Assembly: GCA_000004985.1 (NCBI GenBank)
Contig: GG738924.1
Reading direction: 5' to 3' (one strand)
DNA from: Naegleria gruberi
Taxonomy: Eukaryota
Length of the DNA: 64,000 nucleotides
Shown: positions 18,551-61,521 of the stretch, piece after piece
How positions within the stretch are numbered: the first letter of the stretch is position 1
Layout of the letters: each line of letters begins with the position of its first letter
The notes under the pieces: model-generated
Seen by the model: only the letters and a program-made list of their open reading frames with translations
What the model was told of the DNA's origin: nothing
Databases searched by the model: none
Translations under genes and position numbers: made by a program

Positions 18551-20683
18551 ATGACTCACAAGAATAACTCTACCACCAACAATACCACAACGTCTTCATC
18601 CATTGACCAAAATGCTACCACTTTTCAATTTCAATTTGTCTTTGACAAGGTCATGCTCAACCAAAGAACATTGAAATTATTCAAAGAATTTCTAATGAAG
18701 AGTTTACATTCCCCAGAAGCTATCCTCTTCTATGAGAAAGTTCTCGAATTTAAATCATTCGAAGGACAAGCTCTGACTGAACATCAGACGAAACTTGCTT
18801 AGAATATTGTGGAGAATGTTATTTTTGTTGGCTCCGCGCATGAAATTAACATTGGAAAAAGAGAGAGAAATCAGGTACTTGAGAGGGTGAAGAGATTATT
18901 AGGTAATAACCCACAAAGAAGTGAAGTTGAGTTGCAATATTTTTCGAATAGTAAGCAAACGCTCAATAAGAAAGAAACCGAAAGTGATGAACAATCAGAA
19001 ACTTCAACAAATAAGCAAAAGAGCTTTTCTTCGATGAATGAGACTTCTACCTTCATAATGGTCGATCCAATTAACATTTTTGATGAAGCATTAGTGACAG
19101 TTAAGAGACAACTCAAAGAAGACGTGTTTCCACTTTTTTTGAGAAGTGACAGATTTCTGACATTTTGTAAGAAGGCATCGAGAGAAACTCTGGGAGAGAT
19201 TGGTTATGAGAGAAGACAGTGTCGTCAATCTGGCAACGTTTCTATTGAAGATTTTTGGAAATTTTACAGAGCTGATTGTGAATCTCTAAATGTCAATGGT
19301 CAAGATGTCAAATTTTTAAGCTCTTTATCAATAGATAGTTCTGATTGGACTCTATTAGAGCAAGAATACTTTAAAAAGAGTTGTTTTGCAACATTTGTTT
19401 CATCTGAAACTCATTGCATGATTAGACCAGAAACTTCCGAATATAGAAATCCAAATTCACAACATATTTACAAATGTACAGGTGTCATTAATCACTCAAC
19501 TGAGAAAGTATTGAAAGCTCTGACAGATTCTCACTTTATGGCCACTTATGATAATAATTTAGCTGTTTGTGAATGCATTGATTTTGTAAATTCTCAAATT
19601 CAAAGCAATTCTCTTCCTGAATCATTATTCGAATTGGACGAAACTGTTCAATTCTCCTCCTCTATCATTCTACAAAATTATCCTTTCAACTGGCCACTTT
19701 CTGGAAGAGATTTCCTCACCAGTCAAACAGATGTCTATGAAAAATCCACTCAACGTTATTTCATTCTCATCAAATCTGTCAACCATCCACTTGCCAAACC
19801 AAAAGAAGGAAGTGTCAGATCTTATCTTGTCGGTGGTTGGATTATTCAACCAATTTCTGATGAATTCTCACGATATACTTTGGTCAATTATATGGATGTG
19901 AATATGAGTGAAAAATTAGTTCAGCAATTTCAACTGAGGAGAGGAAAGAAATTATTCCATTCGTTGAATAAGATATTGAAAGAGATGGACAGGAGTTCAA
20001 TGAATGAGGTGAATGATTCGTGTGGTTTATTGGAAACTTTGGACGAATTTTTGGATTTATACGAAATTAACATTGATGACCAATATAGGAAAGTGAAGAA
20101 ACTAAACAAGATGGAAATGAAGGAACTTCTCACTCCAAGAAAAACTCACCTCGCAAGCACTTCTACCTCAAATCTCGACCACCTTTCGAATAAGATTATT
20201 CGATTGACCTACATTTCCAAATGTAAGAAAAATTTCAATTCTACAGAGCTTGACAAGATTGCAACCACTGCAACTCGATTCAATTCCAGTATCAACGTAA
20301 CTGGTCTCCTTCTCTATTGTAAAGAAGGAATTTTCTATCAAGTATTAGAAGGTGAAAAAGAATTAGTTTCAAATCTATTCGAAAAGATTAAGAAAGATTC
20401 GAGACATTTCGATGTGAAATGTGTCAAAATGGAAACAGATTTATGTGATCGTGATAGACAATTCAAGGGATGGGCCATGAACACAGTTAACTTGGAAACG
20501 TCAGATCATTTCTTTGCTGATTTTATGAAAGAATTATTAGTGACAGTTTCAAAGATGGAGCTCAATAACATGACAGAAGATCAAGCTGTTGGGTTTATAT
20601 TCAAGACATCGAGGCAGATGTTTGAGAAGAGTAGGGAGAGCGGATTTGTTTCGAGATTAGGTTCTTGTTTTTGTATGAAATAA
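18551..20683 (+). CDS. RGS - START-like - BLUF multidomain protein (putative blue-light sensor). A single in-frame TAG at 18800..18802 interrupts the RGS domain, so this may be a pseudogene, a readthrough site or a sequence error.
   Basis: ATG at 18551. The RGS domain spans the stop (..LKLFKEFLMKSLHSPEAILFYEKVLEFKSF..TKLA*NIVENVIFVGSAHEINIGKRERN..IFDEALVTVKRQLKEDVFPLFLRSDRF). The middle region has a START/Bet v1-like fold pattern (VRSYLVGGWIIQPISDEFSRYTLVNYMDVN). The C-terminal BLUF domain is IIRLTYISKC..INVTGLLLYCKEGIFYQVLEGEKELVSNLFEKIKKDSRHFDVKCV..FKGWAM, with the photoactive Tyr, Gln and Trp present. The track ORFs 18551..18802 and 18809..20683 share one frame. Confidence 0.8.
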
Positions 20684-21065
20684 AGGTAAATAAAGTGGAC
20701 GAAAGTAAACTAAAGTTGATTCTCAAAGTGTTATCTCTTTATGATCTAATAACGTATCAGTATTAGGAAGGTCCTATCTCCTGTAATAGAATGAAAACTA
20801 TTTTGGCGCCTTTTCCTCCTTAATGTCATCTGACAAGTGTCAAAAAACCACCAGTAAATGTCTCAAAACGTAAAAAATCCAACCATCAACCACCATCACC
20901 AAGTACATCTTAATTCCTCCTCCTCATAACAAATCCCATCTCACCTGCCAACCATCAAACCAACACTATTTTTTTTTCGCGCCATTTCCCTCTATCCAAT
21001 CTCTACAATTATTTTCAATTCAGCAACTCAAAAAAAAACTCGCGATTCCAAATTTCTTCGAAGAA

Positions 21066-24000
21066 ATGAGCAGCGTTGAATATCAGCACGGCAATGAAGT
21101 GCTTTTCATAAAGAAGGGAAGTAGTGGCGAGTCAACCAACAACAATAATAACGCGATGACCACAGAAAGTAATGATCATAAGGCACAGGAATTGGCTCAT
21201 CACGGCGATTCGAAGGATGAACATGTTGATAGTCAACATCATCACCCGAAAGGACCGTTTACATTAACGGCAGATGAATTGTCAGAGATGCATCAGAATA
21301 AGGATTTGAAAGGGTTGCAAAAGATGGGTGGAATGTCTGGTTTGATGAGAGATTTGAAAACTGATGCAAAGAGGGGGATTGCCTGGAAGTCGAATTATCA
21401 AAGTTATGATGAGAGGACGAATCTGTATGGTCTTAATGTGTATCCTGAACCGCCGGCTAAAGGTCTCTTCAAAATATTCTTTGAGGCTCTATCAGACGAA
21501 ACTCACATTATTTTAATGATATTCGCCTTCATTTCGATGGTGTTGGGATTGGCATTTCCTGAATCTGAAGAGGAAAGACCAATTGGTTGGATTGATTCGT
21601 TTGCAATTTATATAGCTGTAGCTATTGTTTGTGTGGTTACAACCGCCAACGACTATTCGAAAGAGAAAAAGTTTAAAAACTTGTCAAGAGAATCCAAAAA
21701 GGTAATGGTTAAGGTTATTAGAGATGGGGAAAATTTTAGCGTTCTCACTGATGATATCAGAGTTGGAGATATTGTTGAAATTGAACAAGGAGATGGTATT
21801 CCAGCTGATGGGCTCTGTATTGAATCAAACCATTTGAAAACAGACGAATCTGTCATGACAGGAGAACCAGATTTGATTAAGAAGAATACAACAGAATTAA
21901 TTTTCTTATTGAGTGGTTGTACAGTTGCTGAAGGTTCTGGAAAGATGCTTGTTACAGGTGTTGGTGTTGGAAGTGAATGGGGAAGAACCTTGCAAAGTTT
22001 GAAAGAAGCCAATGAAGAACAAAGAGAAACTCCTCTCGAAGCCAAATTAGATAAGCTCGCCATCAATATTGGTAAAGTTGGTACTGCATTTGCGATTGGT
22101 ACTGTTACCATTTTGATTTTGGCCTTTTGGATTAAGAAATTGATGTACACTTCAACTTGGGTTGAGGCCTCATCAACATTTGAAGAAACTTGGCAAGAAA
22201 AGAATGTAGTTGATGTGGTCAAGTACTTTATTATTGCTTTGACTATTGTCGTCGTTGCTGTCCCTGAAGGTTTACCACTTGCTGTCACAATTGCTCTTGC
22301 TTACTCTGTTCGTAAAATGATGAAAGATCAGAATTTAGTTAGACACTTGGCAGCTTGTGAGACTATGGGTGGTGCTAACAATATTTGTTCTGACAAGACT
22401 GGTACACTTACTTTGAATCAGATGAGAGTTACCCAAGCTTATTTTGGAGATCGATTCTTTGGTGAGCAATTGAGCTCAATACTGTTGACATTGAAATCAC
22501 CACTGTTGCAAGTAATCATTGATGGTATTGTTGCCAATTCAAAGGCAAACTTGGTCAAGGGTGATGACAATAATAAGAATAAGGAGTATGCCACTCAAGG
22601 AAGTAAGACTGAAGCTGCTCTTTTACTTTTACTTGTCAAACATTTGAATCAGACCATTGACAGTTACAAAGATAGAAGAAATGAATTGCTAAGTGAAGAA
22701 AGAGGCTCTCACCTCCAACTTCCATTCAATTCCAACTTGAAGCGTATGAGTACCATCGTTACAAACTCTGAGGGAGAAACCAGATATCGTCTCTTCACAA
22801 AGGGTGCTTCTGAAATTGTCCTCAAATTGTGCTCCTATCACATGGCTAGTGATGGTTCATTGAGAAAGATGGATTCTGAAAAGGAAGCTGAAATGATGAA
22901 ATGTATTGAAGATATGGCTAATCAAGGTTTGAGAACAATTTGCTTGGCCTACAGAGATGTCAATCCAGAAGTTGAATTCTCATCACGAGCTGATGAAGAA
23001 AATTATTTAGAAAATATTGATCCAGTTACCTTGGAACAAGATTTAGTATGTATTGGTATTGTAGGCATTAAGGATCCATTGAGACCTGAAGTACCAGCAG
23101 CTATTGAACAATGTAAGAAATCAGGTATCACTGTCCGTATGATTACAGGTGACAATATCTTGACAGCCAAGTATATTGCCAGAGAGTGTGGTATCTTGTC
23201 GAAGGATGGTATTGCTATTGAAGGCCCAACATTCAGAAAGATGACTCCAGAGCAAATTGATGAGATTCTTCCAAAATTACAAGTTATGGCTCGTTCCTCA
23301 CCAACTGACAAGTTTATTCTTGTAAAGCATTTGAGAAAGAAGGGTAACGTTGTTGCTGTGACTGGAGATGGTACCAATGATGCTCCAGCTCTTAAAGAAG
23401 CCGATGTTGGATTGAGTATGGGTCTTAGTGGAACCCAGGTTGCTAAGGAAGCTTCTGATATCATTATTTTGGACGATAACTTCTCATCCATTGTTAAGAG
23501 TGTGTTGTGGGGTCGTTCCATTTACGAGAATATCAGAAAGTTTTTAGTTTTCCAATTGACAGTCAACGTGGTTGCTTTGATTTTAACAATTGTTTCTGCT
23601 GTTTCGTCTGCTTTCCAACATAATTCTTCCTATAGGCCACCTTTGAGTCCTGTACAAATGTTGTGGATCAACTTGATCATGGACACGTTTGCAGCTCTCG
23701 CCCTTGCCACAGAACCTCCAATTCCAGAACTTTTAGACAGAAAACCTCACGGAAGAAAGGATTCCCTCATTACAATGAGAATGTGGACCTTCATTGCTGC
23801 TGAATCAATCTTCCAGCTCACTGTCATGTTCACACTCTTCTATGGAGCAACCTCATTCAGAGGACTTTCATTCAGCTTAGCCAGAAATGATGCTGAAATG
23901 AGAACCATCATTTTTAATGCTTTCGTATTTTGTCAAGTTTTCAATCAATTCAACGCAAGAAAGATTAATTTTGAGTATGATATTTTCAGAGGAGTTTTCA

Positions 24001-24317
24001 AGAGTTTCTGGTTTATTGGTATCACCATAATGATTTTCATTTTACAAATTGCCATCATTAACTTTGCCTATTATGATCCAATTCTTATTGGTTTGGGTAA
24101 GAATGATGGTTTGACTGCCTCCAATTTTACCCAGACCATTCCATTGAATTGGTATCAATGGGCCATAACTATTTCCATTGGTTTCATCAGTATTCCATAT
24201 GGCTTTTTAGTGAGATTCGTCAGCAGAATGTTTTTGAAATTATTGAGCTTGAAGAAGAATAACAGACAAATTACCAGTGATGGCTACGAGGAAACCTATT
24301 CCAAAGCAAGTGAATAA
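21066..24317 (+). CDS. Plasma-membrane-type Ca2+-transporting P-type ATPase (PMCA, type IIB)
   Basis: Uninterrupted 1083-aa ORF with ATG at 21066. P-type motifs are present: TGES-region, CSDKTGTLT phosphorylation site, KGASE, MITGDN, VAVTGDGTNDAPALKEADVG. It has ten predicted TM segments and strong overall similarity to PMCA/ACA pumps. Confidence 0.95.
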   Translation: MSSVEYQHGNEVLFIKKGSSGESTNNNNNAMTTESNDHKAQELAHHGDSKDEHVDSQHHHPKGPFTLTADELSEMHQNKDLKGLQKMGGMSGLMRDLKTDAKRGIAWKSNYQSYDERTNLYGLNVYPEPPAKGLFKIFFEALSDETHIILMIFAFISMVLGLAFPESEEERPIGWIDSFAIYIAVAIVCVVTTANDYSKEKKFKNLSRESKKVMVKVIRDGENFSVLTDDIRVGDIVEIEQGDGIPADGLCIESNHLKTDESVMTGEPDLIKKNTTELIFLLSGCTVAEGSGKMLVTGVGVGSEWGRTLQSLKEANEEQRETPLEAKLDKLAINIGKVGTAFAIGTVTILILAFWIKKLMYTSTWVEASSTFEETWQEKNVVDVVKYFIIALTIVVVAVPEGLPLAVTIALAYSVRKMMKDQNLVRHLAACETMGGANNICSDKTGTLTLNQMRVTQAYFGDRFFGEQLSSILLTLKSPLLQVIIDGIVANSKANLVKGDDNNKNKEYATQGSKTEAALLLLLVKHLNQTIDSYKDRRNELLSEERGSHLQLPFNSNLKRMSTIVTNSEGETRYRLFTKGASEIVLKLCSYHMASDGSLRKMDSEKEAEMMKCIEDMANQGLRTICLAYRDVNPEVEFSSRADEENYLENIDPVTLEQDLVCIGIVGIKDPLRPEVPAAIEQCKKSGITVRMITGDNILTAKYIARECGILSKDGIAIEGPTFRKMTPEQIDEILPKLQVMARSSPTDKFILVKHLRKKGNVVAVTGDGTNDAPALKEADVGLSMGLSGTQVAKEASDIIILDDNFSSIVKSVLWGRSIYENIRKFLVFQLTVNVVALILTIVSAVSSAFQHNSSYRPPLSPVQMLWINLIMDTFAALALATEPPIPELLDRKPHGRKDSLITMRMWTFIAAESIFQLTVMFTLFYGATSFRGLSFSLARNDAEMRTIIFNAFVFCQVFNQFNARKINFEYDIFRGVFKSFWFIGITIMIFILQIAIINFAYYDPILIGLGKNDGLTASNFTQTIPLNWYQWAITISIGFISIPYGFLVRFVSRMFLKLLSLKKNNRQITSDGYEETYSKASE

Positions 24318-24442
24318 ATTGTATATTATAATATAAAATTAATATTTTGAAAAATTCTTATCAATTATTTACAGTAAACATTTCCCGCCCAACAACAATT
24401 AAAAAATGAAAAAGCAAAGAAAAATTTCATCCATCAAAAAAA

Positions 24443-25210: not shown

Positions 25211-25250
25211 CAAAAAAACAAAATAAAAATTTCAATATTATTCACTCACA

Positions 25251-31862: not shown

Positions 31863-34800
31863 TTACAAATCTTCATCATCTTCCTCATCGTCATCATCAA
31901 ATTCTTCATCACTGGCATCATTATCAGTTGTTCCAGTCATTGTAAAGTTTTCCATATCCGCATCGAACAATGTTAACATGGCATCTTCTTCCTCCAAGAT
32001 TGCCTCTGGTGAAATAAATGATTGTCCAAAGCTGGCTGTACTGTTTTGTCTGGAAAGCATCTTACTGGTATCATCAGAACATGAAGAAATTGTGCTGGAA
32101 AGTGGAGAAGTTGGTGGTAAATCGGTTCCCAATTGTTGTTTCTCCAATTGTTGTTGCTTTTCCAATTGTTTTTTGAGTTTCTTTTCCTTCTTTTTCTTTT
32201 CTCTCTTGTGTTTCTTGATGGTTGCTGCAAGACTCTTGTTTCTGATATTTCTACCCATTTTCAAGTCATTGTAGAGAGTTGCTGACATGTCGACTCTTTC
32301 GGCAGCTTCCTTGCCCATGCAGGAAATGACATGTTTCCAAACAGGATCTTCTTCTGGAATAACTGGAATGCTGTTAATGTTCTTTCGAATATAATCATTG
32401 AAACCTTTCATCATACCCTTGGCACGATCCATTCTCAACAAGTTGATGGCAAATCTGGCATTTCCACCAACATCCAACAAGTGAATTTGAGTAATATTAG
32501 TTCTATAAGAGTCAAGTTTCTTAATGGAATAGTATTGGAAATCTCTGATATCAATGAGCTTCTTTCCTTCATTGACGCCCTTGCCATCCATGTAAAATCT
32601 TTCGTGTTCGCATGGTTTGTAGAGGAGTGTTAATTTTTCTTCATTCTTATCATAGTAAGCTGTACAAACACTCAAGAAACTTCTCTTTGTTGTGAATGGG
32701 AATGGGAAACCAACTCCGTATCTGATAACACCACATGACCTAGGACCTCTCTTGAATTTCTCATTTGGATACATCTTTTTCAAAGTTTCAAAATCATAGA
32801 ATGATAATTCTTCACAGGAGGTAATATTTGGATCGTATTTGTGAACTTGCAATCCTGGCATGCAACATTTCTTGACAGCGTCAAAAGGAAATGGTAAAAT
32901 ACCTGTCCACTTGTTAATTTGCATTTTCTGATAGAATCCAACGTTAGGGAAGAGTACCTTTTCTGATAATTTATATACATTGATAGCTCCTTCCTTCTTG
33001 GATCCCAATAATTTCCATTGATAATCATCTCTTGCCAAGTATTCCATAAATTCAATGTCCCTGTCAAAGACAAATGGTAATTTAAAGTCTTCATCTCCGT
33101 ATGGATAGTAAGTGGCTTCCTTGAGACGTCCAACTTTGGTCAAATAACTCAAACCTTTGTGTTGTAATTTCTTAAACCACACATCACTTCTCACAAACCT
33201 AGGGAAACTGTCATTTTCCAATTCATACATGACAGAATTCTTCATTGTACGGAACAACAAGTGTGGAGGTTGTGGCAACAACCATTCATCAAATTCCTGA
33301 TATTGTTTTGATTCTTGGAAGAGTCCAACAAAGGTACGTTTGTCACGAGAGGAAATGTTAATTTCCTTCTTTGAATCTTCCTCAATAAAATCTTTCATAA
33401 TTTGAATTGCTAACATGATTTGCTTTCTGTAAACTTTGAGAACTTGATCATATTTGGAACGTGGAGTATTTGGTGGAAGTGTAAGGAATGCGTGTTGGAG
33501 AGATCTTGGTCTATCTCCAGATGTTCTTGATGAGCTACCTGAAATATCAGAACGTTCAGAAGTTGGATCATCCTCAGGTGATGCAACTCCATTCCTCAAT
33601 TCTTCCTTCTTCTTTTCCTTCTTTTCAGTGAGAACTGTCAAGAGACTCTTCATGCCATTGTCTTCTTGTCCACTATTACTTGAAGCACCAACTGGGGTAC
33701 TATCTTCACTTTCACCACTTTCACTCTTTTCAACGAGTCCCAAGTTTAATTTTGGTAATGCTCTTGGAGTTGGTGTGGTAAGAGAAATACCAGGTTCTCC
33801 TACAGTACCAGAAGTGCCATTTGTTGCATGTTCATTGGTGAAGTGTTCAGTTGTTTTGATTGTGACCACCTCAGCATCAGTTTCAGTTGCCTTTACAGTT
33901 GGCACATCCTTCAAAATCATGTCCATCAAGGTGGTTTCTTTCTTTTCAGATGGAGAGGTTGGATTTGAATGTGGAGTATTGACATTACTATTTGTATTGC
34001 TATTTGGATTGCTTGCAGTTGCATTTTGATCCTTCTTCTTTTTCAAAATGGAAAGTCTCAAACTAAATCTATTAGACTTTTCAGATTCGTCATCTTCTGC
34101 ATCATTGGTAGTTGGAGTACTATTAGTTTGTGGTGTATTTGCTTTAGTTTCATCCACCTTTGGCTTTTTACCCAATCCAAAGAATGATAATTGTTTCTTG
34201 GCTGCTTTTCTTGGTGTAGTTGGTTCAGATTCAGATTTGGATGGTGATTTAGTCTTATCATTTTGAGTCATCATGAGCATCATCTTTGGTAAATCAGAGA
34301 ATGGAGTTTTAAAATGTGAAAAAGTGGCTGATGAGCCAGATCCAGAATTTGACAAGGAAGATGCAGCAGAACCACCTTCAAGAGCCAAATTAGCATTAGC
34401 AGTTTGAATATCCTTGACCATTTTCATCATTTTGTAATAGGTAAATTCCAATTCATTCACTCGAGTAATAAATTCCAAAGGTTCTGTATTGTGTTCAGTT
34501 TCCAAATATCTGTAAAAGGCACGAAACATGGTTCTATCTGTGAAAATTCCCTGGAATGAGAATAAATAATCTTCCAAATTGGTTTCAACGAATAATTGTT
34601 GTTGAGATGGCAACTTGCCAGTTTTTGAAATGTGTGAAGAGGAGGCAACAGTTGACAATCCTCTCTCTGCAGAACCTGATGATTTCTTAGTTGGCAGTGA
34701 AAAGATCATTGGTGTTTCCTTATATCTCTTTTCATCTGCATCTATTTTAGTTTCAATGGTTGGTGTAGCTTGACCATCTTCACTACCATTTTGTGCTCCT

Positions 34801-35165
34801 GCTGATGTTGTTGTCGATGATGATGTTGAATTGTTTTTATCATGTGAAGAATTGGTTCTGAAACGATTGAAAAGTTTGGAAGCAAATGAAGATGTGTGAG
34901 TTTTCTGAGTTGGAGTGGATGTAGTAGTATTTGGAGTTGAGGAGGTTTTGGTATTGCTATTCTTTCCATTAGATGTAGATGTGGTGATGGTGTTATTATT
35001 GGAAGTAGATGTGGAAATGTTGGTATGTTCGTCTTCATCATCCTCTTCTTCCTCTTCGACTGCTCCCAGGGCTTCTATATTCACTCCATATAATGTATTA
35101 TTATTATTATTATTAGCAGTATTATTATTATCATTATTATTGGTTGGATGTGGTGGAGGTTTCAT
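31863..35165 (-). CDS. Large RGS-domain / START-domain signalling protein with long low-complexity (N/S/T-rich) linkers
   Basis: 1100-aa ORF with ATG at 35165. It has an RGS N-terminal half (FQGIFTDRTMFRAFYRYLETEHNTEPLEFITRVNELEF) and an RGS C-terminal half (QVLKVYRKQIMLAIQIMKDFIEE..NDSFPRFVRSDVWFKKL), followed by a START-like domain (DYQWKLLGSKKEGAINVYKLSE..IDIRDFQYYSIKKLDSYRTNITQIHLLDVGGNARFAINLL). It is a paralogue of the RGS/START portions of the genes at 18551 and 54348. Confidence 0.75.
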   Translation of the reverse strand: MKPPPHPTNNNDNNNTANNNNNNTLYGVNIEALGAVEEEEEDDEDEHTNISTSTSNNNTITTSTSNGKNSNTKTSSTPNTTTSTPTQKTHTSSFASKLFNRFRTNSSHDKNNSTSSSTTTSAGAQNGSEDGQATPTIETKIDADEKRYKETPMIFSLPTKKSSGSAERGLSTVASSSHISKTGKLPSQQQLFVETNLEDYLFSFQGIFTDRTMFRAFYRYLETEHNTEPLEFITRVNELEFTYYKMMKMVKDIQTANANLALEGGSAASSLSNSGSGSSATFSHFKTPFSDLPKMMLMMTQNDKTKSPSKSESEPTTPRKAAKKQLSFFGLGKKPKVDETKANTPQTNSTPTTNDAEDDESEKSNRFSLRLSILKKKKDQNATASNPNSNTNSNVNTPHSNPTSPSEKKETTLMDMILKDVPTVKATETDAEVVTIKTTEHFTNEHATNGTSGTVGEPGISLTTPTPRALPKLNLGLVEKSESGESEDSTPVGASSNSGQEDNGMKSLLTVLTEKKEKKKEELRNGVASPEDDPTSERSDISGSSSRTSGDRPRSLQHAFLTLPPNTPRSKYDQVLKVYRKQIMLAIQIMKDFIEEDSKKEINISSRDKRTFVGLFQESKQYQEFDEWLLPQPPHLLFRTMKNSVMYELENDSFPRFVRSDVWFKKLQHKGLSYLTKVGRLKEATYYPYGDEDFKLPFVFDRDIEFMEYLARDDYQWKLLGSKKEGAINVYKLSEKVLFPNVGFYQKMQINKWTGILPFPFDAVKKCCMPGLQVHKYDPNITSCEELSFYDFETLKKMYPNEKFKRGPRSCGVIRYGVGFPFPFTTKRSFLSVCTAYYDKNEEKLTLLYKPCEHERFYMDGKGVNEGKKLIDIRDFQYYSIKKLDSYRTNITQIHLLDVGGNARFAINLLRMDRAKGMMKGFNDYIRKNINSIPVIPEEDPVWKHVISCMGKEAAERVDMSATLYNDLKMGRNIRNKSLAATIKKHKREKKKKEKKLKKQLEKQQQLEKQQLGTDLPPTSPLSSTISSCSDDTSKMLSRQNSTASFGQSFISPEAILEEEDAMLTLFDADMENFTMTGTTDNDASDEEFDDDDEEDDEDL

Positions 35166-48631: not shown

Positions 48632-49591
48632 ATGAAAGTAAATCTACTCTTTTCAATTGCAATTCTACTCTTACTTGCAATACTCTCAGTTCAAGCAACT
48701 GACAGCTATCAAACCAAACCTCCAGTTGTCGTAGTTGACAAGTATCACAAACCAAGAATTTGTAAGAGAAAATGCTTAAAGCACAAGTGGATTAAGAAGT
48801 GTTTGAAACACAAACTCGTCGGTCAAAAGAAGGTCTGTGATCAATATGCCATTGTCGGTGCTGGCAAATGTCTCAAACATAAGAAATATTCCAAATGTGA
48901 CAAGTATAGCAAGGCAACAAAGAAGTGTGTCTTGCATGCATACAAGATTGTTGGATGTGCCAAGAAGAAGTATTGGAAAGTTTGCGATTCTTATGGAACT
49001 AAGAAGATTTGTATCAAGAAGGGTTTCAAGAAATTCTGTGCCAAGTACAAGATTATCAACAAGTGTGTTAAGAAGGGATATAAGAAGATCTGTAAGAAAT
49101 TCAAGAAGGTTCCAATCAAGAAGTGTGAAAAGAAGAAGGTCTGTGATAAGTACACTGTTGACTCTTATAATAAGAAGGTTGCCAAATGTAGATATGTTAA
49201 AAAGTGCAAGATTGTTTCATGGGCAAAGAAATGTGCCAAGTATAAGAAGGTTAAATATTGTAAGGAGAGAAAATCCATTAAGAAATGTTGTCTCATTAAG
49301 AAGAAATTCTTCTGTGCCAAACATAAGACTATCAAGTTCTGTAAACACAAGAAGACTATTTCTAAATGTGTCAAATATAACAAGAAGAAGTATTGTGCCA
49401 AGTCAATTGTCATTCCACCAAGATGTATCAAGAAGAAGTATTATAAGAAGTGTTTGAAACGTTCAAAGGGAAAGAAGATTTGTAAGAAATTCAAATTAGT
49501 TGGTGGAAAGAAGAAGTGTTGCAAGTCAATCAAGAAGAAGATTTGTATCAAGAGAAAGACATGCAAGAAGCCAATCATCAAAACCTTGTAA
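48632..49591 (+). CDS. Secreted, extremely Lys/Cys-rich repetitive protein (polycationic; repeated KKC-x-K-[HY]-K units)
   Basis: 319-aa ORF with ATG at 48632. It has a signal peptide MKVNLLFSIAILLLLAILSVQA. The mature part is roughly one-third Lys and ~15% Cys, with Cys spaced every ~6-12 residues in a degenerate repeat (CLKHKWIKKCLKHK..CAKKKYWKVC..KKCEKKKVC..). Confidence 0.6.
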   Translation: MKVNLLFSIAILLLLAILSVQATDSYQTKPPVVVVDKYHKPRICKRKCLKHKWIKKCLKHKLVGQKKVCDQYAIVGAGKCLKHKKYSKCDKYSKATKKCVLHAYKIVGCAKKKYWKVCDSYGTKKICIKKGFKKFCAKYKIINKCVKKGYKKICKKFKKVPIKKCEKKKVCDKYTVDSYNKKVAKCRYVKKCKIVSWAKKCAKYKKVKYCKERKSIKKCCLIKKKFFCAKHKTIKFCKHKKTISKCVKYNKKKYCAKSIVIPPRCIKKKYYKKCLKRSKGKKICKKFKLVGGKKKCCKSIKKKICIKRKTCKKPIIKTL

Positions 49592-49870: not shown

Positions 49871-51757
49871 TTAATCTTGTAAGATTTTGTTGGCCTTTCT
49901 CCAATTTTCAACAATGATCCTCACTGATTTGTTACTAGATTTCAATCTTTCGAATAGATCGGTCATGTTATTGAGACATGCAACTCGAACAATGTCAAAT
50001 AATGTACTGGCTATGAGTGAATCATCATTCACACTCAGAATTTCATGTTCAATTCTCAGATAAATTTGGTCAATGTTGGCAATATTCAATTCTAATGGAG
50101 ATCCTTCTTTCAGGTAGGTTTTCAATATTTTCATTGCCACCAGTTTCTTATTCTTTCGTTTGGGGGATTTTCTGAAATTTTCAATATCTCTATATGCTAA
50201 AACATCTTCATTACAATAACTCCTTGTCGCAAAATCCAATAACAATGCAAATGTCTTCCTATTTTTCAAAAATAATTCAAGTTCTGATTGAGCATACTCA
50301 GCTTGATGATTATCATTACGAATGGCATAAATGACAGGAAGAATGACTGAAATAATTATTTCCAATAATGAATAGGTCAGTAGAGTAAATCCAAATGGAA
50401 CGAAATAATCTGTCAAGAATCTGATAATCTCAATTTGTCCACTAATTATATAAGCAAGTGATAAAGCCACTTGAATAAATACCAAAACAAAAGCTTCAGT
50501 CTTAATTGACCAAGTATCTCTATCAACAAAGAAGAGAATGATCAAAAAGCTCACTTCTATCACAATGTAGAGTGCTGCTTCTGCTCCCAGCAATATAACA
50601 GTATTTGAGGTTGTAACACATCCACTATTAAATGCAAATGGACTCACATTCCACAAGAATATTCTCTTTCCACTATTACTATACGAAAGTTCATCAATTC
50701 CTCCCAATAAAGCCCAAATAGATAAGTGAATAATGAATGAAATTGTATAAGTGATTGCAATAAACTTGTAGCTCACCAAATATGAAAATATTTTGAACTT
50801 TTTGTCAGAGAAAATTGCAGAAGTGTTGTCAATGTCAGAAGAAGTGACCCACGTTTTTTGATCTTGTTCATCATGGACATCTTCTCCAGTTTCTGGAGTA
50901 ACCCGTGTTGTTGTAATCTGTTCTGAAGTTTGTGATGCATCGTTTGGATTTTCTTGTGATATATTTGAAATGGTACTCGAGTTATCAAATGTTTTTGGTG
51001 TCAATAATTCTGGTTGACTTGTCTCTGATAATTCCGTAGAAGATCCATGTTGTATAGATGCTAATGGAAGAATGGTAATACCTTTCAATTTGTCATCCTC
51101 TTGAACTTGTTGATCCACATTTTGTTCCTTTTTCACATTGGTCAATTGTTGTGGTTTTTCACTTTTCGTCTGAAACATTTGTGCCTTCTTCTTATTGAGT
51201 AAATACATGAAATAAATCCTCAAACATCGAAATACAGTTGGCAGACACAAACTAGGAATAATGATGAAAAACGAAAAAGTGTACAAGAAACATGGAAATA
51301 TTTTCCTCGAAATTGTAAATCGTAGACATGTAATGACCACAAAAGCCAAACTAGCTGATATTGTCAGTAGCATGTAAACTGGATTCCTAGCTTTGATGTG
51401 TCCACTCTTTCTCTTCCAAATAACTCCAACAGTTCCAAAAAGTGCCAACGTCAAATAGAGTGTCAAGAAGATGGATGCGATGATTGGTGTAAAGATGCTG
51501 TCTGGGCAAATATTATTTACCACTGTTGCATTGTATCCTTCACGACTCAAGTCTCCTAGATTGAACAATCTTTCGTCACATATTGAATAATTTGTTGTTG
51601 AGGTATTGTTGTTGGAAAGTTGTTGTTGTTGAATAGAATAAATTGTTGTTGCTATTGGATAACGATAATGAAAAGATTCTTGAATAAATGATGAAAGAAG
51701 GGTAAATATTCGAAATTGGGTTTCATTATTTTGACCTGCATGATGCAGCTGGTACAT
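49871..51757 (-). CDS. Seven-transmembrane receptor fused to a C-terminal RGS domain (7TM-RGS, AtRGS1-like architecture), copy 1 of a tandem pair
   Basis: 628-aa ORF with ATG at 51757. It has an N-terminal Cys-containing ectodomain (SICDERLFNLGDLSREGYNATVVNNICPDS), seven hydrophobic helices with a long Ser-rich third loop and a C-terminal RGS domain (KNRKTFALLLDFATRSYCNEDVLAYRDIENFRK..ILKTYLKEGSPLELNIANID..LFDIVRVACLNNMTDLFERL). Confidence 0.8.
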   Translation of the reverse strand: MYQLHHAGQNNETQFRIFTLLSSFIQESFHYRYPIATTIYSIQQQQLSNNNTSTTNYSICDERLFNLGDLSREGYNATVVNNICPDSIFTPIIASIFLTLYLTLALFGTVGVIWKRKSGHIKARNPVYMLLTISASLAFVVITCLRFTISRKIFPCFLYTFSFFIIIPSLCLPTVFRCLRIYFMYLLNKKKAQMFQTKSEKPQQLTNVKKEQNVDQQVQEDDKLKGITILPLASIQHGSSTELSETSQPELLTPKTFDNSSTISNISQENPNDASQTSEQITTTRVTPETGEDVHDEQDQKTWVTSSDIDNTSAIFSDKKFKIFSYLVSYKFIAITYTISFIIHLSIWALLGGIDELSYSNSGKRIFLWNVSPFAFNSGCVTTSNTVILLGAEAALYIVIEVSFLIILFFVDRDTWSIKTEAFVLVFIQVALSLAYIISGQIEIIRFLTDYFVPFGFTLLTYSLLEIIISVILPVIYAIRNDNHQAEYAQSELELFLKNRKTFALLLDFATRSYCNEDVLAYRDIENFRKSPKRKNKKLVAMKILKTYLKEGSPLELNIANIDQIYLRIEHEILSVNDDSLIASTLFDIVRVACLNNMTDLFERLKSSNKSVRIIVENWRKANKILQD

Positions 51758-51825
51758 TGTTGTCTTTTGGACGCAATTTTTTTGTTGTTGCTTGTCTCAC
51801 ACAATTAGGATATCCTACAGATCAC

Positions 51826-53757
51826 CTACAGGTTTAAACTGTTTCTACGAAAGTTAATAACCATTTCTTGTATGTTCTTGTCTGTGGCTTTCAATCTTTC
51901 AAATACATCAACCATGTTATTTAGACAGAGAACTCTAATATCATCAAACAAGGTATTGGGAATCAGAGAAGGGTTTGTTGCTTTTTGGAGAATTGATTCA
52001 ATTTCTTCATACTTTTTGGAAAGGTTTGACATGTTGAGCTCGAGAGAAGATCCACTTTTAAGATAGGTTTTCAATATTTTCGTGGCAACCTTCTTCTTGT
52101 GCTTTTTGGAAATCTTTCTAAACTTTTCAATGTCTCTGAAGGCAAGAACATCTTCAGGGCAGTAGCATCTTCTGGAAAATTCTAAAAGTAAGGCAAATGT
52201 TTTTCTATTTTTGAGAACCGTCTCAATTTCAGTTTGGGAATATCCTCCATTCTCGGTATTTAATTGTTTTTGAAACTTTCTGTCATCAATAATTGCATAA
52301 ATTACAGGTAACAATACAGCAATAAATATTTCAAATACTGAATAGGTCAGTAGAGTAAATCCAAACGGAACGAAATAATCTGTCAAAAATCTAATCACCT
52401 CAATTTGACCACTAACTAAGAATGCAATAGCTGTTATGATTTGAATCACAATTAATACAAAGGTATCTCTTTTGATATGAAAAGCATCTCTATCAGCAAA
52501 GAATAATGGAATAAAGAATGCAATCTCGATAATAATGTAGATGGCTGCCTCTGCTGCCAACATAAAGACAGTGTTAGTGTTAGTAACACAGCCTGTAGTT
52601 GCTGCAAACATGCTGATATTCCACAAGAATACTCTTTTTCCTCCATTACTAACAACAAGTTCATCGGCTCCTCCAAATATTGCCCAAATAATAAGATGCA
52701 AAATGAAGGCAACAATATACGATGAAGCAATGAGTTTGTAACTCACCAAGAAGGAATAAACCTTAAATTTCCTATCATTATAAACTGATTCTGTATAGTC
52801 CACATCAGTTGAGGTAACCCATGAACGGGAATCATCTTCAGTGTCTGAATCTACCTCACTTTTTCGTTGTTCTGATGAAACATGACTTGATGTATTGTTG
52901 TCAGTCAATGGGGTATCGGGAATGTGTGGAATAACAACACCATTATTATTGGTAGTAGTAGTAATTTCTGGAAAGGTGAATTTTTCCACACTAAAAGGTT
53001 CAACTACATCTTGATGTTCTGTTAAAGTGGTGGGAATTAATTCAAAATTGACCACTCTACTTGATGTGAGAGCTTCCCTAGACGTCGATGGACTATTGTC
53101 TTGTTGGTGACTCTGTGAATCTCTTGCTGTTGTGATGTGAGATACCACCAATGAGAGGGAAGAATTATTGTTGAGTGCAGATGATGAAGCTGAATGTTTT
53201 GATGATTCAAAAGTCATTGCTTTTCTTATATTCAACTTGTACATGAAAAAGATACGAATGAATCGGAATACTGCTGGAAGACACATTGCAGGCACTGTGA
53301 TAAAGTATGAAATAGTGTATAAAAAGCAGGGGAATATCTTTCTTCCTATAATAAATCGCAAACAAGTTGTTACGACAAAGTACAAAGTTGCCGAGATGGT
53401 CAAAATCATATGAAGTGGATTACGAGCCTTGATGTGTCCACTGTTTCTCTTCCACAACACTCCAATAATAGCCAAAGTAACCAAACACAAATAAACAAAT
53501 AGAAAAACTGCTGAAACTATTGGAGTGAAGATACTATCTGGACAAATGTTATTGACCATCGTGGCATTATATCCTTCTCGGCTCAGTTCTCCCAATTTAA
53601 AGAGTCTCTCATCACAAATAGATGATGTTGAATTACTATTTGATGAGGTATTTGATGATGCAACCAATAAAGAAGAAATAATTGTTGGCACTTGACTGCT
53701 CACGCTACTGAAGAAATATTGCAATACTTGTTGTAGTGGAATGAGTTGTGCAACCAT
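51826..53757 (-). CDS. Seven-transmembrane receptor fused to a C-terminal RGS domain (7TM-RGS), copy 2 of a tandem pair
   Basis: The track ORF 51826..53820 starts at an alternative TTG. The first ATG is at 53757 (MVAQLIPLQQ..). Domain order and many blocks are shared with the gene at 49871..51757 (SICDERLFKLGELSREGYNATMVNNICPDSIFTP; TM helices; KNRKTFALLLEFSRRCYCPEDVLAFRDIEKFRK). Confidence 0.8.
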   Translation of the reverse strand: MVAQLIPLQQVLQYFFSSVSSQVPTIISSLLVASSNTSSNSNSTSSICDERLFKLGELSREGYNATMVNNICPDSIFTPIVSAVFLFVYLCLVTLAIIGVLWKRNSGHIKARNPLHMILTISATLYFVVTTCLRFIIGRKIFPCFLYTISYFITVPAMCLPAVFRFIRIFFMYKLNIRKAMTFESSKHSASSSALNNNSSLSLVVSHITTARDSQSHQQDNSPSTSREALTSSRVVNFELIPTTLTEHQDVVEPFSVEKFTFPEITTTTNNNGVVIPHIPDTPLTDNNTSSHVSSEQRKSEVDSDTEDDSRSWVTSTDVDYTESVYNDRKFKVYSFLVSYKLIASSYIVAFILHLIIWAIFGGADELVVSNGGKRVFLWNISMFAATTGCVTNTNTVFMLAAEAAIYIIIEIAFFIPLFFADRDAFHIKRDTFVLIVIQIITAIAFLVSGQIEVIRFLTDYFVPFGFTLLTYSVFEIFIAVLLPVIYAIIDDRKFQKQLNTENGGYSQTEIETVLKNRKTFALLLEFSRRCYCPEDVLAFRDIEKFRKISKKHKKKVATKILKTYLKSGSSLELNMSNLSKKYEEIESILQKATNPSLIPNTLFDDIRVLCLNNMVDVFERLKATDKNIQEMVINFRRNSLNL

Positions 53758-54347
53758 TTTCTTTGTTGTGATCTTCAGCAACAGTGTTGACAACTTTGAT
53801 GGGAAAGGAAACTTTTCCAAGCCTCCGAAACAAAACGGGTTGATGTTATGCCTTACATATCATCTCGACTCGATTTTTTGGTTATGAAAATTTTTTGTGA
53901 TGTGTTGATTGGTATTGTATAATCTTTTTTAGGACCAAAGCTGTAATAATAATTTTTAAAAAATATTTGAAAAAGATATTGTTAATAATAATATCGGGTT
54001 GATGTTGTTAGTGTTTGAGTGGGTTAACAAGTTGAAACACCTGAAGGAATTTCAGATCAGCACGATGAGATTATTTAAATAGTAGTGGTTTTTAAATTTT
54101 TATTGTTGGACAAGTGTTCGTTGAGGAATGACCATACTCAATTCATCAATTACACGAATAACAATTTGAATATCGCCAAACAATCACTGTGTTTTACTCT
54201 TTACTTTGTGTGCTCAACAATAAAAAGAGTACTAGCCTTGAAAGCTTGTTTAGATTCTTACTGCCTTGATGTGTAACATGTCAGCCAATCTAAGGAAGTA
54301 AACGAAATATAAAAAAATATGAAACTCGTCATCACCGTTACATCAAC

Positions 54348-55889
54348 ATGAGTAATAATAGCACATCACAACAGAAGAAACGAAAATTCGAAACCAACCG
54401 ATATATGGTTGTTTTTGAGGAGTTGCTGAGAGCTCCAGAAGCAAGAGAAAATTTCAGAGGTTTTCTCAAACTGGTTCATTGTGAGGAACCTCTTCAATTG
54501 ATCGATGCCATTGATTCATACAGAACCGAACATAAAAAGCTAATAGATAATATTGATGACAGTGCTTCCGATTTTGATTTTCAAGGTTTTAAAAAGATAC
54601 TACTCCTTGTGAATCAACTTGAAAATATTGTAAATACCTTTGGATTGGAAGATTCTATTGAAAAGTTTTCACATTATTATATGGGTGCTTGGACTCGTAC
54701 ACTGAATCTCTACCATCTTGTAACACTAAAATTGGAATCCATTTCCAACTCTAACAAAACTAACAACAAGCAAATATTTGAAATTTTAGAAATTTTAAAT
54801 CCTTCCAATATTTTGGAAGATGTAGAGACAAAGGCAATTCTTGATTTGAAATATGATGAATTTCCAAGGTATGCCAGGTCGAATACGCTTCACTTGTTTC
54901 TTGTACGAAAGGGTGAAGAATATACGAGAAGAATTGCTATTAATATTGCTAACGATTTTTATGTAGATATTAGATTTAAACCTAAAGATTTTGAATCTCA
55001 ATTAATGACTGATAAGGATGTTTATTTTGCTTATACATTGAGTGAAGATACACCTGATTGGAAAGAATTAACTTGTAGCGAGAAACCTAACTTTTTACAG
55101 ACCTTTGTTTCAAAAACAGTTTATTCAATAGGACCAGACGAAATGAAAGGAATGAGATTATTTAAATTGGTAATGCATCTGCCCTATGCAGTTGAAGATG
55201 TTTGGGCTACGTATTGTGATATGAATACACGATTCAAACTTGATCACACTCTCATGAAAGATTTCAAATTGCTGAGATATATTCCACCACATCAGAAGAA
55301 ATCAAGTGAGCAACGAGATTCCATTTCATTTTATGAGATATTTGATGAGAGAGATAATCGATACACTGTGGATAAACCACCACTTGCCATTCAGATTGGA
55401 GCTCTGGGTATTGAAATGCACATTCCACTATTGAAACACAGAGACTTGCCACATACAATGACTTCACTTTATGATCCCTCGGTGAATTGTTACATGAACA
55501 TTGGTCACACGTGCAAGATTGAGGAATCACTCAGGCGTGCACCTACAGATAGAGTCAAGTCTGAAATTTTGTTCAATTACATGTTCTTTGGTACTGGAGA
55601 AAAATCAACAAGATTTATTCACACAGTGTATACAGACCTACATGTTCCTTTGGATTCTGATTTTGTTTTGAGTAAGATTTGGAAGAATAGAAGCAAACAA
55701 TTACAGGCCTCATTTGAAGAATTACTAGCAGAAAAAACCAAGGGAGGAACCATTTCCATTGACAAATCTATGGTGAATGATCATTTCAAATATTTTACAG
55801 CTGTGGAAGACAATGCCAAATTGAATAGAAAGTGGTACAGAGATTATTTGAGAAAGAAAAATCAAATGCAAATTGAATATGGTGATTGA
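54348..55889 (+). CDS. RGS-domain / START-like domain protein
   Basis: 513-aa ORF with ATG at 54348. It has an RGS-like N-terminal region (YMVVFEELLRAPEARENFRGFLKLVHCEEPLQLIDAIDSYR..KAILDLKYDEFPRYARSN) and a C-terminal START/Bet v1-like region. It resembles the RGS/START parts of the genes at 18551 and 31863. Confidence 0.65.
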   Translation: MSNNSTSQQKKRKFETNRYMVVFEELLRAPEARENFRGFLKLVHCEEPLQLIDAIDSYRTEHKKLIDNIDDSASDFDFQGFKKILLLVNQLENIVNTFGLEDSIEKFSHYYMGAWTRTLNLYHLVTLKLESISNSNKTNNKQIFEILEILNPSNILEDVETKAILDLKYDEFPRYARSNTLHLFLVRKGEEYTRRIAINIANDFYVDIRFKPKDFESQLMTDKDVYFAYTLSEDTPDWKELTCSEKPNFLQTFVSKTVYSIGPDEMKGMRLFKLVMHLPYAVEDVWATYCDMNTRFKLDHTLMKDFKLLRYIPPHQKKSSEQRDSISFYEIFDERDNRYTVDKPPLAIQIGALGIEMHIPLLKHRDLPHTMTSLYDPSVNCYMNIGHTCKIEESLRRAPTDRVKSEILFNYMFFGTGEKSTRFIHTVYTDLHVPLDSDFVLSKIWKNRSKQLQASFEELLAEKTKGGTISIDKSMVNDHFKYFTAVEDNAKLNRKWYRDYLRKKNQMQIEYGD

Positions 55890-61519: not shown

Positions 61520-61521
61520 TA

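What the first reader, a model, noticed from the sequence alone, without database searches (positions are those of the whole stretch)
18551..55889. Concentration of five RGS-domain genes in ~37 kb, including three RGS+START genes and two 7TM-RGS receptors
RGS domains occur in the genes at 18551, 31863, 49871, 51826 and 54348. Three of them pair RGS with a START-like lipid-binding domain, and two are GPCR-like 7TM proteins with a C-terminal RGS. This density of one domain family in a single window points to lineage-specific expansion of G-protein regulators by local duplication and domain shuffling.
Basis: partly seen in the sequence, partly recalled or inferred. Interest (0 to 1): 0.6.

Follow-up and report, generated by a model that had tools for sequence, protein, structure and literature searches.

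The report
Naegleria RGS gene cluster, one BLUF-linked
Five real G-protein-regulator (RGS) genes sit within 37 kb of the amoeba Naegleria gruberi's genome, which is mostly expected for a lineage known to have about a hundred such genes, but one of them also carries an overlooked blue-light-sensor domain and belongs to a small family I could not find described.

Summary
The window is Naegleria gruberi: the gene at 54348 is 100% identical to NAEGRDRAFT_59903.

**Observation confirmed**
- All five genes have RGS domains. Four pass Pfam's threshold. The fifth is confirmed by profile and by predicted fold.
- Two genes (g3 49871, g4 51826) are 7TM-RGS proteins.

**Interpretation partly supported**
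- g3 and g4 are true tandem duplicates, 51-57% identical and sister in an NJ tree.
- g1, g2 and g5 are ancient paralogs. Each has much closer relatives in Willaertia, N. lovaniensis or metagenomes than in the window.
- The clustering is not conserved in N. lovaniensis or Willaertia.
- RGS and 7TM-RGS expansion in Naegleria is already published (108 RGS genes in N. fowleri).

- g1 ends in a strong BLUF domain (88 bits) with all photocycle residues, giving RGS-START-BLUF.
- This architecture recurs in Willaertia magna, Acrasis kona and metagenomes, and I found no description of it in the searchable literature.
- The window's copy has an in-frame TAG at codon 84. A second N. gruberi copy reads Gln there.

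Likely function: a blue-light-gated Gα regulator, analogous to fungal RGS-LOV.

The parts
18551..20683 (+). g1: RGS-START-BLUF gene, 710 codons, with an in-frame TAG at codon 84
   Evidence: Translation. Pfam gives RGS 45.3 bits and BLUF 87.6 bits. The START fold is shown. The Willaertia ortholog P0013 is 38% identical over the full length.
18800..18802 (+). In-frame TAG inside a conserved RGS helix of g1
   Evidence: The second N. gruberi copy, NAEGRDRAFT_76231, reads Gln here (KLAQNIVE), and so does the Willaertia ortholog. TAA, TAG and TGA all end ORFs in this window, so the genetic code is standard.
18629..19195 (+). g1 RGS domain (aa ~27-215), with a ~50-aa low-complexity insert
   Evidence: Pfam. 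Alignment to RGS4: the E-I-N motif (Asn128 equivalent) is kept, and Arg167 is replaced by Leu.
19253..19990 (+). g1 START-fold domain (aa ~235-480)
   Evidence: Foldseek against the PDB: STARD5 at 1.8e-11 with TM-score (normalised to the target) 0.80, and the top 40 hits are all START domains. pLDDT in this region is 65-85.
20198..20479 (+). g1 BLUF domain (aa 550-643), followed by a conserved C-terminal helix up to about nt 20600
   Evidence: Pfam PF04940 at 87.6 bits. The closest solved structures are OaPAC 4yus at 1e-23 and bPAC at 9e-23. The Tyr554, Asn578, Gln597, Trp641 and Met643 equivalents are invariant or nearly so across the family.
31863..35165 (-). g2: 1100-aa protein with a split RGS domain followed by a START domain, and long low-complexity N-terminal and internal regions
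34410..34559 (-). g2 RGS, N-terminal part (aa 203-252)
   Evidence: Pfam RGS profile positions 1-52, 18.4 bits when scanned alone. The local RGS HMM also finds it.
33135..33413 (-). g2 RGS, C-terminal part (aa 585-677)
   Evidence: Pfam RGS profile positions 49-113, 34.8 bits for the whole protein. A local HMM not trained on g2 gives 52 bits. The E-I-N and D-S-F-P-R-F motifs are intact.
32376..33098 (-). g2 START-like domain (aa ~690-930)
   Evidence: hhalign against the RGS-START-BLUF family profile: probability 95.3%, E 2.3e-8, 214 columns, covering the same region that folds as START in g1.
49871..51757 (-). g3: 7TM-RGS protein, 628 aa
   Evidence: Seven hydropathy peaks at aa 92-476. Pfam RGS 26.5 bits at aa 496-560. 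A metagenome contig, L003, is 99% identical.
51826..53757 (-). g4: 7TM-RGS protein, 643 aa from the ATG at 53757 (the ORF itself extends to 53820). Tandem paralog of g3.
   Evidence: Seven hydropathy peaks. Pfam RGS 26.0 bits. The start codon is inferred from P0003. It is 51% identical to g3.
54348..55889 (+). g5: RGS-START protein, 513 aa, identical to NAEGRDRAFT_59903. Its RGS domain is degenerate.

Best explanation
The region is a stretch of the Naegleria gruberi genome carrying five genuine regulators of heterotrimeric G-protein signalling. They have two unrelated architectures.

(a) g3 and g4 are a head-to-tail pair of 7TM-RGS receptor-GAPs. They were made by tandem duplication within the N. 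gruberi lineage. By analogy with the tested N. fowleri 7TM-RGS proteins and plant AtRGS1, their cytoplasmic RGS domain would speed GTP hydrolysis on Gα subunits, under control of the 7TM part (inferred).

(b) g1, g2 and g5 are three deeply diverged members of an RGS-START family. Here a lipid-pocket (START) domain follows the RGS domain. It presumably couples lipid binding or membrane association to Gα regulation (inferred). They are ancient paralogs, not recent local copies. g5 has lost the catalytic-loop Asn and is probably not a canonical GAP (inferred from sequence).

g1 additionally ends in a PAC-type BLUF flavin domain. It belongs to an RGS-START-BLUF family found in Naegleria, Willaertia, Acrasis and metagenomes. 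The most likely mechanism is inferred, not shown. Blue light switches the Tyr-Gln-flavin hydrogen-bond network. That moves the Met/Trp strand and the conserved post-BLUF helix. This in turn changes how the START and RGS parts engage membrane or Gα, giving light control of G-protein signalling.

The copy in this window carries a premature TAG at codon 84. It is therefore a very recent null allele, a sequencing error, or is expressed only as a START-BLUF product from a downstream start codon.

The co-location of the five genes reflects one real tandem duplication plus co-residence of old paralogs in a genome that has about a hundred or more RGS genes. It is not a functional gene cluster.
For: - Organism: g5 is 100% identical to an N. 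gruberi protein.
- RGS: Pfam and profile evidence. The RGS fold of g5 is shown.
- START: fold for g5 and g1, profile homology for g2, and Pfam START above threshold in g1-family homologues.
- 7TM.
- Tandem duplication of g3/g4.
- Ancient divergence of g1, g2 and g5.
- No synteny in N. lovaniensis or Willaertia.
- BLUF: 88 bits. It is most similar to the BLUF domains of OaPAC and bPAC, including the following helix. The photocycle residues are conserved across 12 family members.
- Family distribution: W. magna KAL9658754.1; A. kona KAL0486363.1, KAL0480502.1, KAL0484174.1 and KAL0490722.1; and metagenomes.
- Published background: N. fowleri has 28 7TM-RGS genes plus 79 other RGS genes plus 1 RGS-RhoGEF, and GAP activity was demonstrated for three 7TM-RGS domains (PMC9283941). 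RGS+START combinations are noted in several taxa (PMC3971589).
Against: - No biochemical activity was tested for any of these five proteins.
- g1 is interrupted by a stop codon in this assembly. The only annotated N. gruberi counterpart (NAEGRDRAFT_76231) is a chimeric, truncated model, so an intact RGS-START-BLUF gene in N. gruberi is not demonstrated.
- The BLUF part of the g1 AF2 model is of low confidence, pLDDT below 50. Nothing can be said about domain contacts.
- Clustering of four independent RGS loci in one window is rarer than random scatter predicts. 'Mere co-residence' may therefore be incomplete, and an eroded ancient array is possible.
- TM prediction was only a hydropathy scan.
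Confidence: 0.75

Rival explanations
1. The five genes are the eroded remnant of one ancient tandem array of RGS genes. Unrelated genes were later inserted between them, so the concentration reflects local duplication after all, only very old.
For: - Tandem arrays do form in this family. N. lovaniensis has a trio of adjacent g5-like RGS-START genes (L005 6097-11635) and a 7TM-RGS pair.
- Four independent RGS loci in one window is improbable under random scatter, at 3e-5 to 7e-4.
- g1, g2 and g5 do share one RGS-START ancestor.
Against: - g1, g2 and g5 are separated by 11 kb and 19 kb of unrelated genes: PMCA, an F-box/LRR protein, a ParB-like nuclease, a cyclase and others.
- They lie on different strands.
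- Their orthologues in Willaertia and N. lovaniensis stand alone or in other contexts.
- The 7TM-RGS domains are a different RGS lineage from the START-linked ones.
Confidence: 0.2
2. Pure coincidence: Naegleria has so many RGS genes that some windows hold several, and only the g3/g4 pair is a duplication.
For: - N. fowleri has 108 RGS genes, and N. gruberi may have more.
- There is no synteny conservation.
- If the family has about 250 members, about 0.4 such windows per genome are expected.
Against: With 108-150 family members, only 0.02-0.06 such windows per genome are expected.
Confidence: 0.45
3. g1 is a dead pseudogene in N. gruberi, and its BLUF domain has no function in this organism.
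For: - There is an in-frame TAG at codon 84.
- A conserved Phe of the E-T-F-I motif is replaced in the window copy, which reads ENVI where the second copy reads ERFI.
- Arg167 is replaced by Leu in both N. gruberi copies.
- No intact annotated N. gruberi protein was found.
Against: - The 626 codons after the TAG are open in a 33% GC genome, where random frames close within tens of codons.
- Every family-invariant START and BLUF residue is kept.
- A second copy has Gln at this codon.
- START-BLUF proteins without RGS exist, for example W. magna KAL9658275.1. A product from a downstream start codon could therefore still work.
Confidence: 0.3

Closest known systems
Naegleria fowleri 7TM RGS proteins (Bosch et al. 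2022, PMC9283941) and Arabidopsis AtRGS1
   Same: g3 and g4 have seven N-terminal TM helices followed by a cytoplasmic C-terminal RGS domain that keeps the E-L-N catalytic-loop Asn. They come from the same genus as a family of 28 such genes in N. fowleri, three of which were shown to be GAPs for Gα.
   Different: g3 and g4 have a short Cys-containing N-terminus with no EGF, lectin or GPS modules. They also have a ~150-aa Ser/Thr-rich loop between TM3 and TM4. Homology of the 7TM part to AtRGS1 was not tested, and neither was activity.
Fungal RGS-LOV photoreceptors (BcLOV4; Glantz et al. 2018, PMC6099885)
   Same: Both pair an RGS domain with a flavin-based blue-light sensor in one polypeptide. 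This is the most plausible functional analogue for g1: light-controlled membrane association or G-protein regulation.
   Different: The sensor in g1 is BLUF, not LOV. These are unrelated folds with different photochemistry. A START lipid-pocket domain lies between RGS and sensor, and the lineage is Heterolobosea rather than fungi. g1 is not a member of that family.
Photoactivated adenylyl cyclases (OaPAC, bPAC, Naegleria NgPACs)
   Same: The g1 BLUF domain is most similar to PAC BLUF domains (1e-23 to OaPAC), and the similarity continues into the helix after the BLUF core.
   Different: g1 and its family have no cyclase domain. BLUF is C-terminal rather than N-terminal. The GenBank names 'photoactivated adenylate cyclase subunit alpha/pacA' given to the Acrasis members are not supported by their domain content.
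RGS proteins with START domains noted in comparative surveys (de Mendoza et al. 2014, PMC3971589), and animal RhoGAP-START proteins (DLC/STARD8, STARD12, STARD13; from my own knowledge)
   Same: In both, a GTPase-regulator domain is coupled to a START lipid-binding domain. The START domain of StarD13 is among the structural matches.
   Different: The survey only lists the domain combination. In DLC proteins the GAP acts on Rho, not Gα, and the two architectures arose independently.

Membership tests
RGS domain (Pfam PF00615) | Sequence score at or above the curated threshold of 23.9 bits | tested here: met
   g1 scores 45.3 (reading through the TAG), g2 34.8, g3 26.5 and g4 26.0. g5 scores 21.3, below threshold, but relatives P0010 and P0012 score 28.9 and 34.9, and its family profile hits only RGS chains in the PDB.
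RGS domain (Pfam PF00615) | All-helical RGS fold | tested here: met
RGS domain (Pfam PF00615) | Gα-contact residues (RGS4 Asn128; Asp163/Arg167) | tested here: inconclusive
   The Asn128 equivalent is present in g1, g2, g3 and g4 and deleted in g5. Arg167 is Leu in g1. The SEEN motif is altered in all five. RGS4 numbering comes from a sequence I recalled from memory and checked for internal consistency.
RGS domain (Pfam PF00615) | GTPase-accelerating activity on a Gα subunit | not testable with these tools
   This needs a biochemical assay.
START domain (Pfam PF01852; Bet v 1-like superfamily) | Sequence score at or above the curated threshold of 22 bits | tested here: not met
   There is no START hit for g1, g2 or g5, even at E<=10. 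Homologues of g1 do pass: P0015 27.8, P0017 40.6, P0019 23.5, P0023 29.0 and P0028 30.5.
START domain (Pfam PF01852; Bet v 1-like superfamily) | Helix-grip fold matching solved START domains | tested here: met
START domain (Pfam PF01852; Bet v 1-like superfamily) | Binding of a lipid in the pocket | not testable with these tools
   No ligand prediction was made.
7TM-RGS receptors (AtRGS1 / Nf 7TM RGS type) | Seven transmembrane helices N-terminal to the RGS domain | tested here: met
   A Kyte-Doolittle scan shows seven peaks in each of g3 and g4. This is a crude method.
7TM-RGS receptors (AtRGS1 / Nf 7TM RGS type) | C-terminal RGS domain placed on the cytoplasmic side | tested here: inconclusive
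   The RGS domain follows directly after TM7. The orientation (N-terminus outside) is inferred from N-glycosylation sites and Cys residues in the N-terminus, and was not computed.
7TM-RGS receptors (AtRGS1 / Nf 7TM RGS type) | Sequence homology of the 7TM part to AtRGS1 or to the tested N. fowleri proteins | not tested
   Only N. gruberi, N. lovaniensis and metagenome homologues were retrieved.
BLUF photoreceptor domain (Pfam PF04940) | Sequence score at or above the curated threshold of 25 bits | tested here: met
   g1 scores 87.6-87.9 bits over profile positions 2-91 of 92.
BLUF photoreceptor domain (Pfam PF04940) | Photocycle residues: Tyr (AppA Y21), Gln (Q63), Asn (N45), Trp/Met (W104/M106) | tested here: met
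   g1 has Y554, Q597, N578, W641 and M643. These are invariant or at least 90% conserved in 12 family members. The AppA numbering is from my own knowledge.
BLUF photoreceptor domain (Pfam PF04940) | Flavin binding and a light-induced red shift | not testable with these tools
   This needs spectroscopy.
Photoactivated adenylyl cyclase (PAC) | A class III cyclase catalytic domain in the same protein | tested here: not met
   There is no Guanylate_cyc hit in g1 or in the Willaertia, Acrasis or metagenome family members. True PACs in the same search, P0032 and P0035, do have it.
RGS-LOV photoreceptors (BcLOV4 type) | A LOV (PAS-type, flavin-Cys adduct) sensor domain | tested here: not met
   Pfam finds no PAS/LOV domain in g1. 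The sensor is BLUF.

The most novel reading that the evidence does not exclude
RGS-START-BLUF proteins are a family of blue-light receptors, found so far in Heterolobosea and metagenomes, that I could not find described. They would act directly on heterotrimeric G-protein signalling, with light changing the GAP activity and/or the lipid or membrane engagement of the RGS-START module. They could be the photoreceptors behind blue-light-induced development in Acrasis. They could also provide a BLUF-based counterpart to the RGS-LOV optogenetic tool.
Probability: 0.4. Interest if true: 0.7.

Novelty: new variant of a known kind. Interest (0 to 1): 0.45.

Why it matters
The cluster as such adds little. 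Large RGS and 7TM-RGS families in Naegleria are published, and only one tandem duplication is involved.

The part that matters is g1. In the 8 million papers searchable here, I found none that describes a natural protein joining an RGS domain, a START lipid pocket and a BLUF flavin sensor. It recurs in at least three heterolobosean genera and in metagenomes.

If it is light-regulated, it gives a direct route from blue light to Gα signalling in a deep-branching eukaryotic lineage. It would be a candidate receptor for the known blue-light induction of Acrasis development, and a new effector type for BLUF domains of possible optogenetic use.

It also exposes annotation problems:
- The Acrasis members are named as adenylate cyclase subunits although they have no cyclase domain.
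- The N. gruberi gene is missing from, or chimeric in, the reference protein set.

Tried and rejected
1. **Alternative genetic code for the TAG in g1.** Rejected: TAA, TAG and TGA all terminate ORFs in the window.
2. **An intron removing the TAG.** Rejected: the TAG lies in a conserved RGS helix. The second N. gruberi copy and the Willaertia ortholog read straight through with Gln, and the Willaertia gene is a single exon.
3. **Direct Pfam detection of START in g1, g2 and g5.** Nothing was found, even at E<=10. I had to use structure prediction and profile comparison instead.
4. **Bootstrapped NJ tree of 31 RGS-START proteins.** It was unresolved, with no clade at or above 50%. I used pairwise scores instead. 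The support values for deeper splits are unreliable because of rooting.
5. **Exact look-ups of window proteins and of N. gruberi P0004.** These found nothing because the genome is not indexed. The second g1 scaffold could therefore not be read, and no dN/dS could be computed.
6. **Full-length g1 for alignment or structure prediction.** The fragment from 18803 was used. Its BLUF part folded poorly because only two sequences in the alignment cover it.
7. **Literature.**
   - No paper in the library pairs a natural BLUF with RGS.
   - The Acrasis genome paper's supplements hold no BLUF or RGS tables as text.
   - The de Mendoza supplements are not held.
   - Yasukawa et al. [quoted passage not shown] It may be an earlier sighting of this family.
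8. **Acrasis kona as the source organism.** I considered this before one search showed the source is N. gruberi.

Full report
**Source and gene models**

The window is AT-rich (about 33% GC) and intron-poor, and it uses the standard genetic code: TAA, TAG and TGA all close ORFs. Its last 1357 bases are N. The 513-aa product of 54348-55889 is 100% identical to NAEGRDRAFT_59903 of Naegleria gruberi, so the window is N. gruberi. The genome itself is not indexed in the exact look-up collection.

I call the five genes:
- g1: 18551-20683, + strand
- g2: 31863-35165, − strand
- g3: 49871-51757, − strand
- g4: 51826-53757, − strand. The start is the ATG at 53757, inferred from a 99% identical metagenome protein.
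- g5: 54348-55889, + strand

**RGS domains**

Pfam RGS (threshold 23.9 bits) scores g2 at 34.8, g3 at 26.5, g4 at 26.0 and g5 at 21.3.

- **g1** scores 45.3 bits only when an in-frame TAG at 18800-18802 (codon 84) is read through.
- **g2** has a split domain. Residues 203-252 match profile positions 1-52, and residues 585-662 match positions 49-113, with about 330 low-complexity residues between them.
- **g5** is sub-threshold, but its RGS domain is real.
  - Relatives P0010 and P0012 pass, at 28.9 and 34.9 bits.
  - A profile of the g5 family's N-terminus hits only RGS chains in the PDB (30 of 30, best 2.4e-6).

A six-frame scan with lineage-specific HMMs finds no further RGS, START or BLUF in the window.

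I aligned the domains to RGS4, using a sequence recalled from memory and checking its numbering. The catalytic-loop Asn128 equivalent is kept in g1 to g4. It is deleted in g5, although relatives of g5 (P0010, P0011, P0012) keep it. g5 is therefore probably not a canonical GAP.

**START domains**

Pfam finds no START in g1, g2 or g5, even at E<=10. The claim still holds on other evidence:
- The g1 model is poor overall (pLDDT 49.5) but reaches 65-85 in this region. It matches STARD5 at 1.8e-11 with TM-score (normalised to the target) 0.80.
- g2 aligns to the same region of the family profile with hhalign probability 95.3%.
- Several homologues of g1 pass Pfam START outright.

**7TM-RGS**

g3 and g4 each show seven hydropathy peaks before the RGS domain, with a Ser/Thr-rich loop of about 150 aa between TM3 and TM4. 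Their N-terminus holds a conserved Cys-containing motif shared with N. gruberi, N. lovaniensis and metagenome homologues.

g1 ends in a BLUF domain at 88 bits, covering nearly the whole profile. Its closest solved relatives are the BLUF domains of the photoactivated cyclases OaPAC (1e-23) and bPAC, and the similarity continues into the helix after the core. The Tyr, Asn, Gln and Trp/Met positions needed for the BLUF photocycle are present and conserved. g1 is therefore an RGS-START-BLUF protein with no cyclase domain.

**The RGS-START-BLUF family**

A word-indexed search of 5.8 billion proteins found only one relative of g1, from a metagenome. A full HMMER search of 1.84 billion representatives found 19 hits below 1e-30. 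Pfam scans and a local domain map show about nine clusters with RGS+START+BLUF, about eight with START+BLUF (mostly fragments), and about twenty with RGS+START only.

Named members of the three-domain class are Willaertia magna KAL9658754.1 and four Acrasis kona proteins. The Willaertia protein is 38% identical to g1 over the full length and is a single-exon gene. The Acrasis proteins are labelled 'photoactivated adenylate cyclase subunit alpha', 'pacA' or 'BLUF domain-containing protein' although they lack a cyclase domain.

The Acrasis genome paper notes BLUF enrichment, two aggregation-induced BLUF proteins and blue-light induction of development, but does not describe this architecture. 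No paper in the searchable library pairs a natural BLUF with RGS. One paper I could not read (Yasukawa 2013) reports a 'BLUF-containing protein' in N. fowleri.

**The stop codon**

NAEGRDRAFT_76231, on another N. gruberi scaffold of 40.9 kb, is a second copy of the g1 N-terminus. It is 93% identical over 321 residues and 100% identical from about residue 170. It reads Gln where the window has TAG.

That gene model then jumps to the C-terminus of the PMCA gene that lies next to g1 in the window, so it is chimeric. The 626 codons after the TAG are open and keep every family-invariant residue. Any inactivation is therefore very recent, or the TAG is an error or one allele.

**Are the genes local duplicates?**

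g3 and g4 are. They are 51% identical over about 600 aa. In an NJ tree they are sister (75% bootstrap) and group with another N. gruberi paralog, while the two adjacent N. lovaniensis genes form their own clade at 100%. The pairs therefore arose, or were homogenised, separately in each species.

g1, g2 and g5 are not. Their mutual scores are 39-43 bits, against 440 bits for g1 with Willaertia, 298 bits for g5 with N. lovaniensis, and 71-81 bits for g2 with metagenome proteins.

Other evidence on location:
- Other N. gruberi RGS-START genes lie on other scaffolds (NAEGRDRAFT_51040 and NAEGRDRAFT_71300).
- None of the window's neighbouring genes is found beside the N. lovaniensis or Willaertia counterparts.
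- N. lovaniensis does have a tandem trio of g5-like genes elsewhere, so arrays do form in this family.

**Chance**

N. fowleri has 108 RGS genes. With 108-250 genes in 30-41 Mb (sizes from my memory), the probability of four or more independent RGS loci in one 62.6-kb window is 3e-5 to 7e-4, giving 0.02-0.4 such windows expected per genome. The concentration is thus somewhat more than random scatter. I could not count RGS genes across the N. gruberi genome.

**Mechanism**

Shown:
- Domain content, folds and conserved residues.
- Published biochemistry showing that N. fowleri 7TM-RGS domains are GAPs for Gα.

Inferred:
- g3 and g4 act as receptor-GAPs.
- g2 is a lipid- or membrane-coupled GAP.
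- g5 is a GAP-dead relative.
- g1-type proteins couple the BLUF light switch, through the conserved linker and C-terminal helix, to the START-RGS module. They would work like fungal RGS-LOV proteins (PMC6099885) without being related to them.

**Verdict**

The cluster itself is ordinary for Naegleria. The RGS-START-BLUF gene is a new variant of known photoreceptor and RGS kinds, and it is the item worth following up.

Noticed in passing
window 62644-64000: A run of 1357 N at the end of the window, either a scaffold gap or padding. It causes the apparent GC drop to 12% in the last composition bin.
   Followed up: yes
window 38641-42577 (+): An adenylate/guanylate cyclase gene (Pfam Guanylate_cyc 58.8 bits in ORF 39587-42577; ORF 38641-39543 upstream is probably part of it) lies between the RGS genes. 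Cyclases are another hugely expanded Naegleria family, with 80 in N. fowleri.
   Followed up: partly
window 21066-24317 (+), and GenBank XP_002668848.1: A plasma-membrane Ca-ATPase gene sits directly downstream of g1. The annotated N. gruberi protein NAEGRDRAFT_76231, on another scaffold, fuses the first 318 residues of a g1 copy to the last ~60 residues of this pump, so it is a chimeric model. The two g1 copies differ at about 24 of the first 170 residues and are then identical.
   Followed up: partly
window 48632-49591 (+): A 319-aa ORF with a signal peptide and an extremely Lys/Cys-rich repetitive sequence (KKCxKxKK-type repeats). It was not scanned against Pfam and its function is unknown.
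   Followed up: no
window 29073-30137 (+): A protein with a predicted signal peptide and a strong ParB-like nuclease domain (PF08857, 118.6 bits).
   Followed up: no
window 58553-62620 (-): A 920-aa ORF with a sub-threshold DDE_3 transposase match (23.5 bits against a threshold of 28.6), followed by a 334-aa ORF with no match, next to the N run. This may be a mobile element at the scaffold end.
   Followed up: no
L005 6097-11635 and L002 10001-14855 (N. lovaniensis): N. lovaniensis has a tandem trio of g5-like RGS-START genes. It also has a tandem 7TM-RGS pair whose RGS domains are almost identical to each other over a stretch of about 60-70 residues, although the proteins are only 56% identical overall. 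This suggests gene conversion.
   Followed up: partly
GenBank KAL0486363.1, KAL0480502.1, KAL0484174.1 (Acrasis kona): These proteins are named 'photoactivated adenylate cyclase subunit alpha' or 'pacA', but they contain RGS, START and BLUF domains and no cyclase domain.
   Followed up: yes
L001 1100-1450 (metagenome ERZ929261): The called protein P0001 is N-terminally truncated. Its RGS domain starts in an upstream exon, separated by an intron of about 140 nt (GTAAGT...TAG). The same metagenome also holds contigs 99% identical to g3 and g4 (L003).
   Followed up: partly
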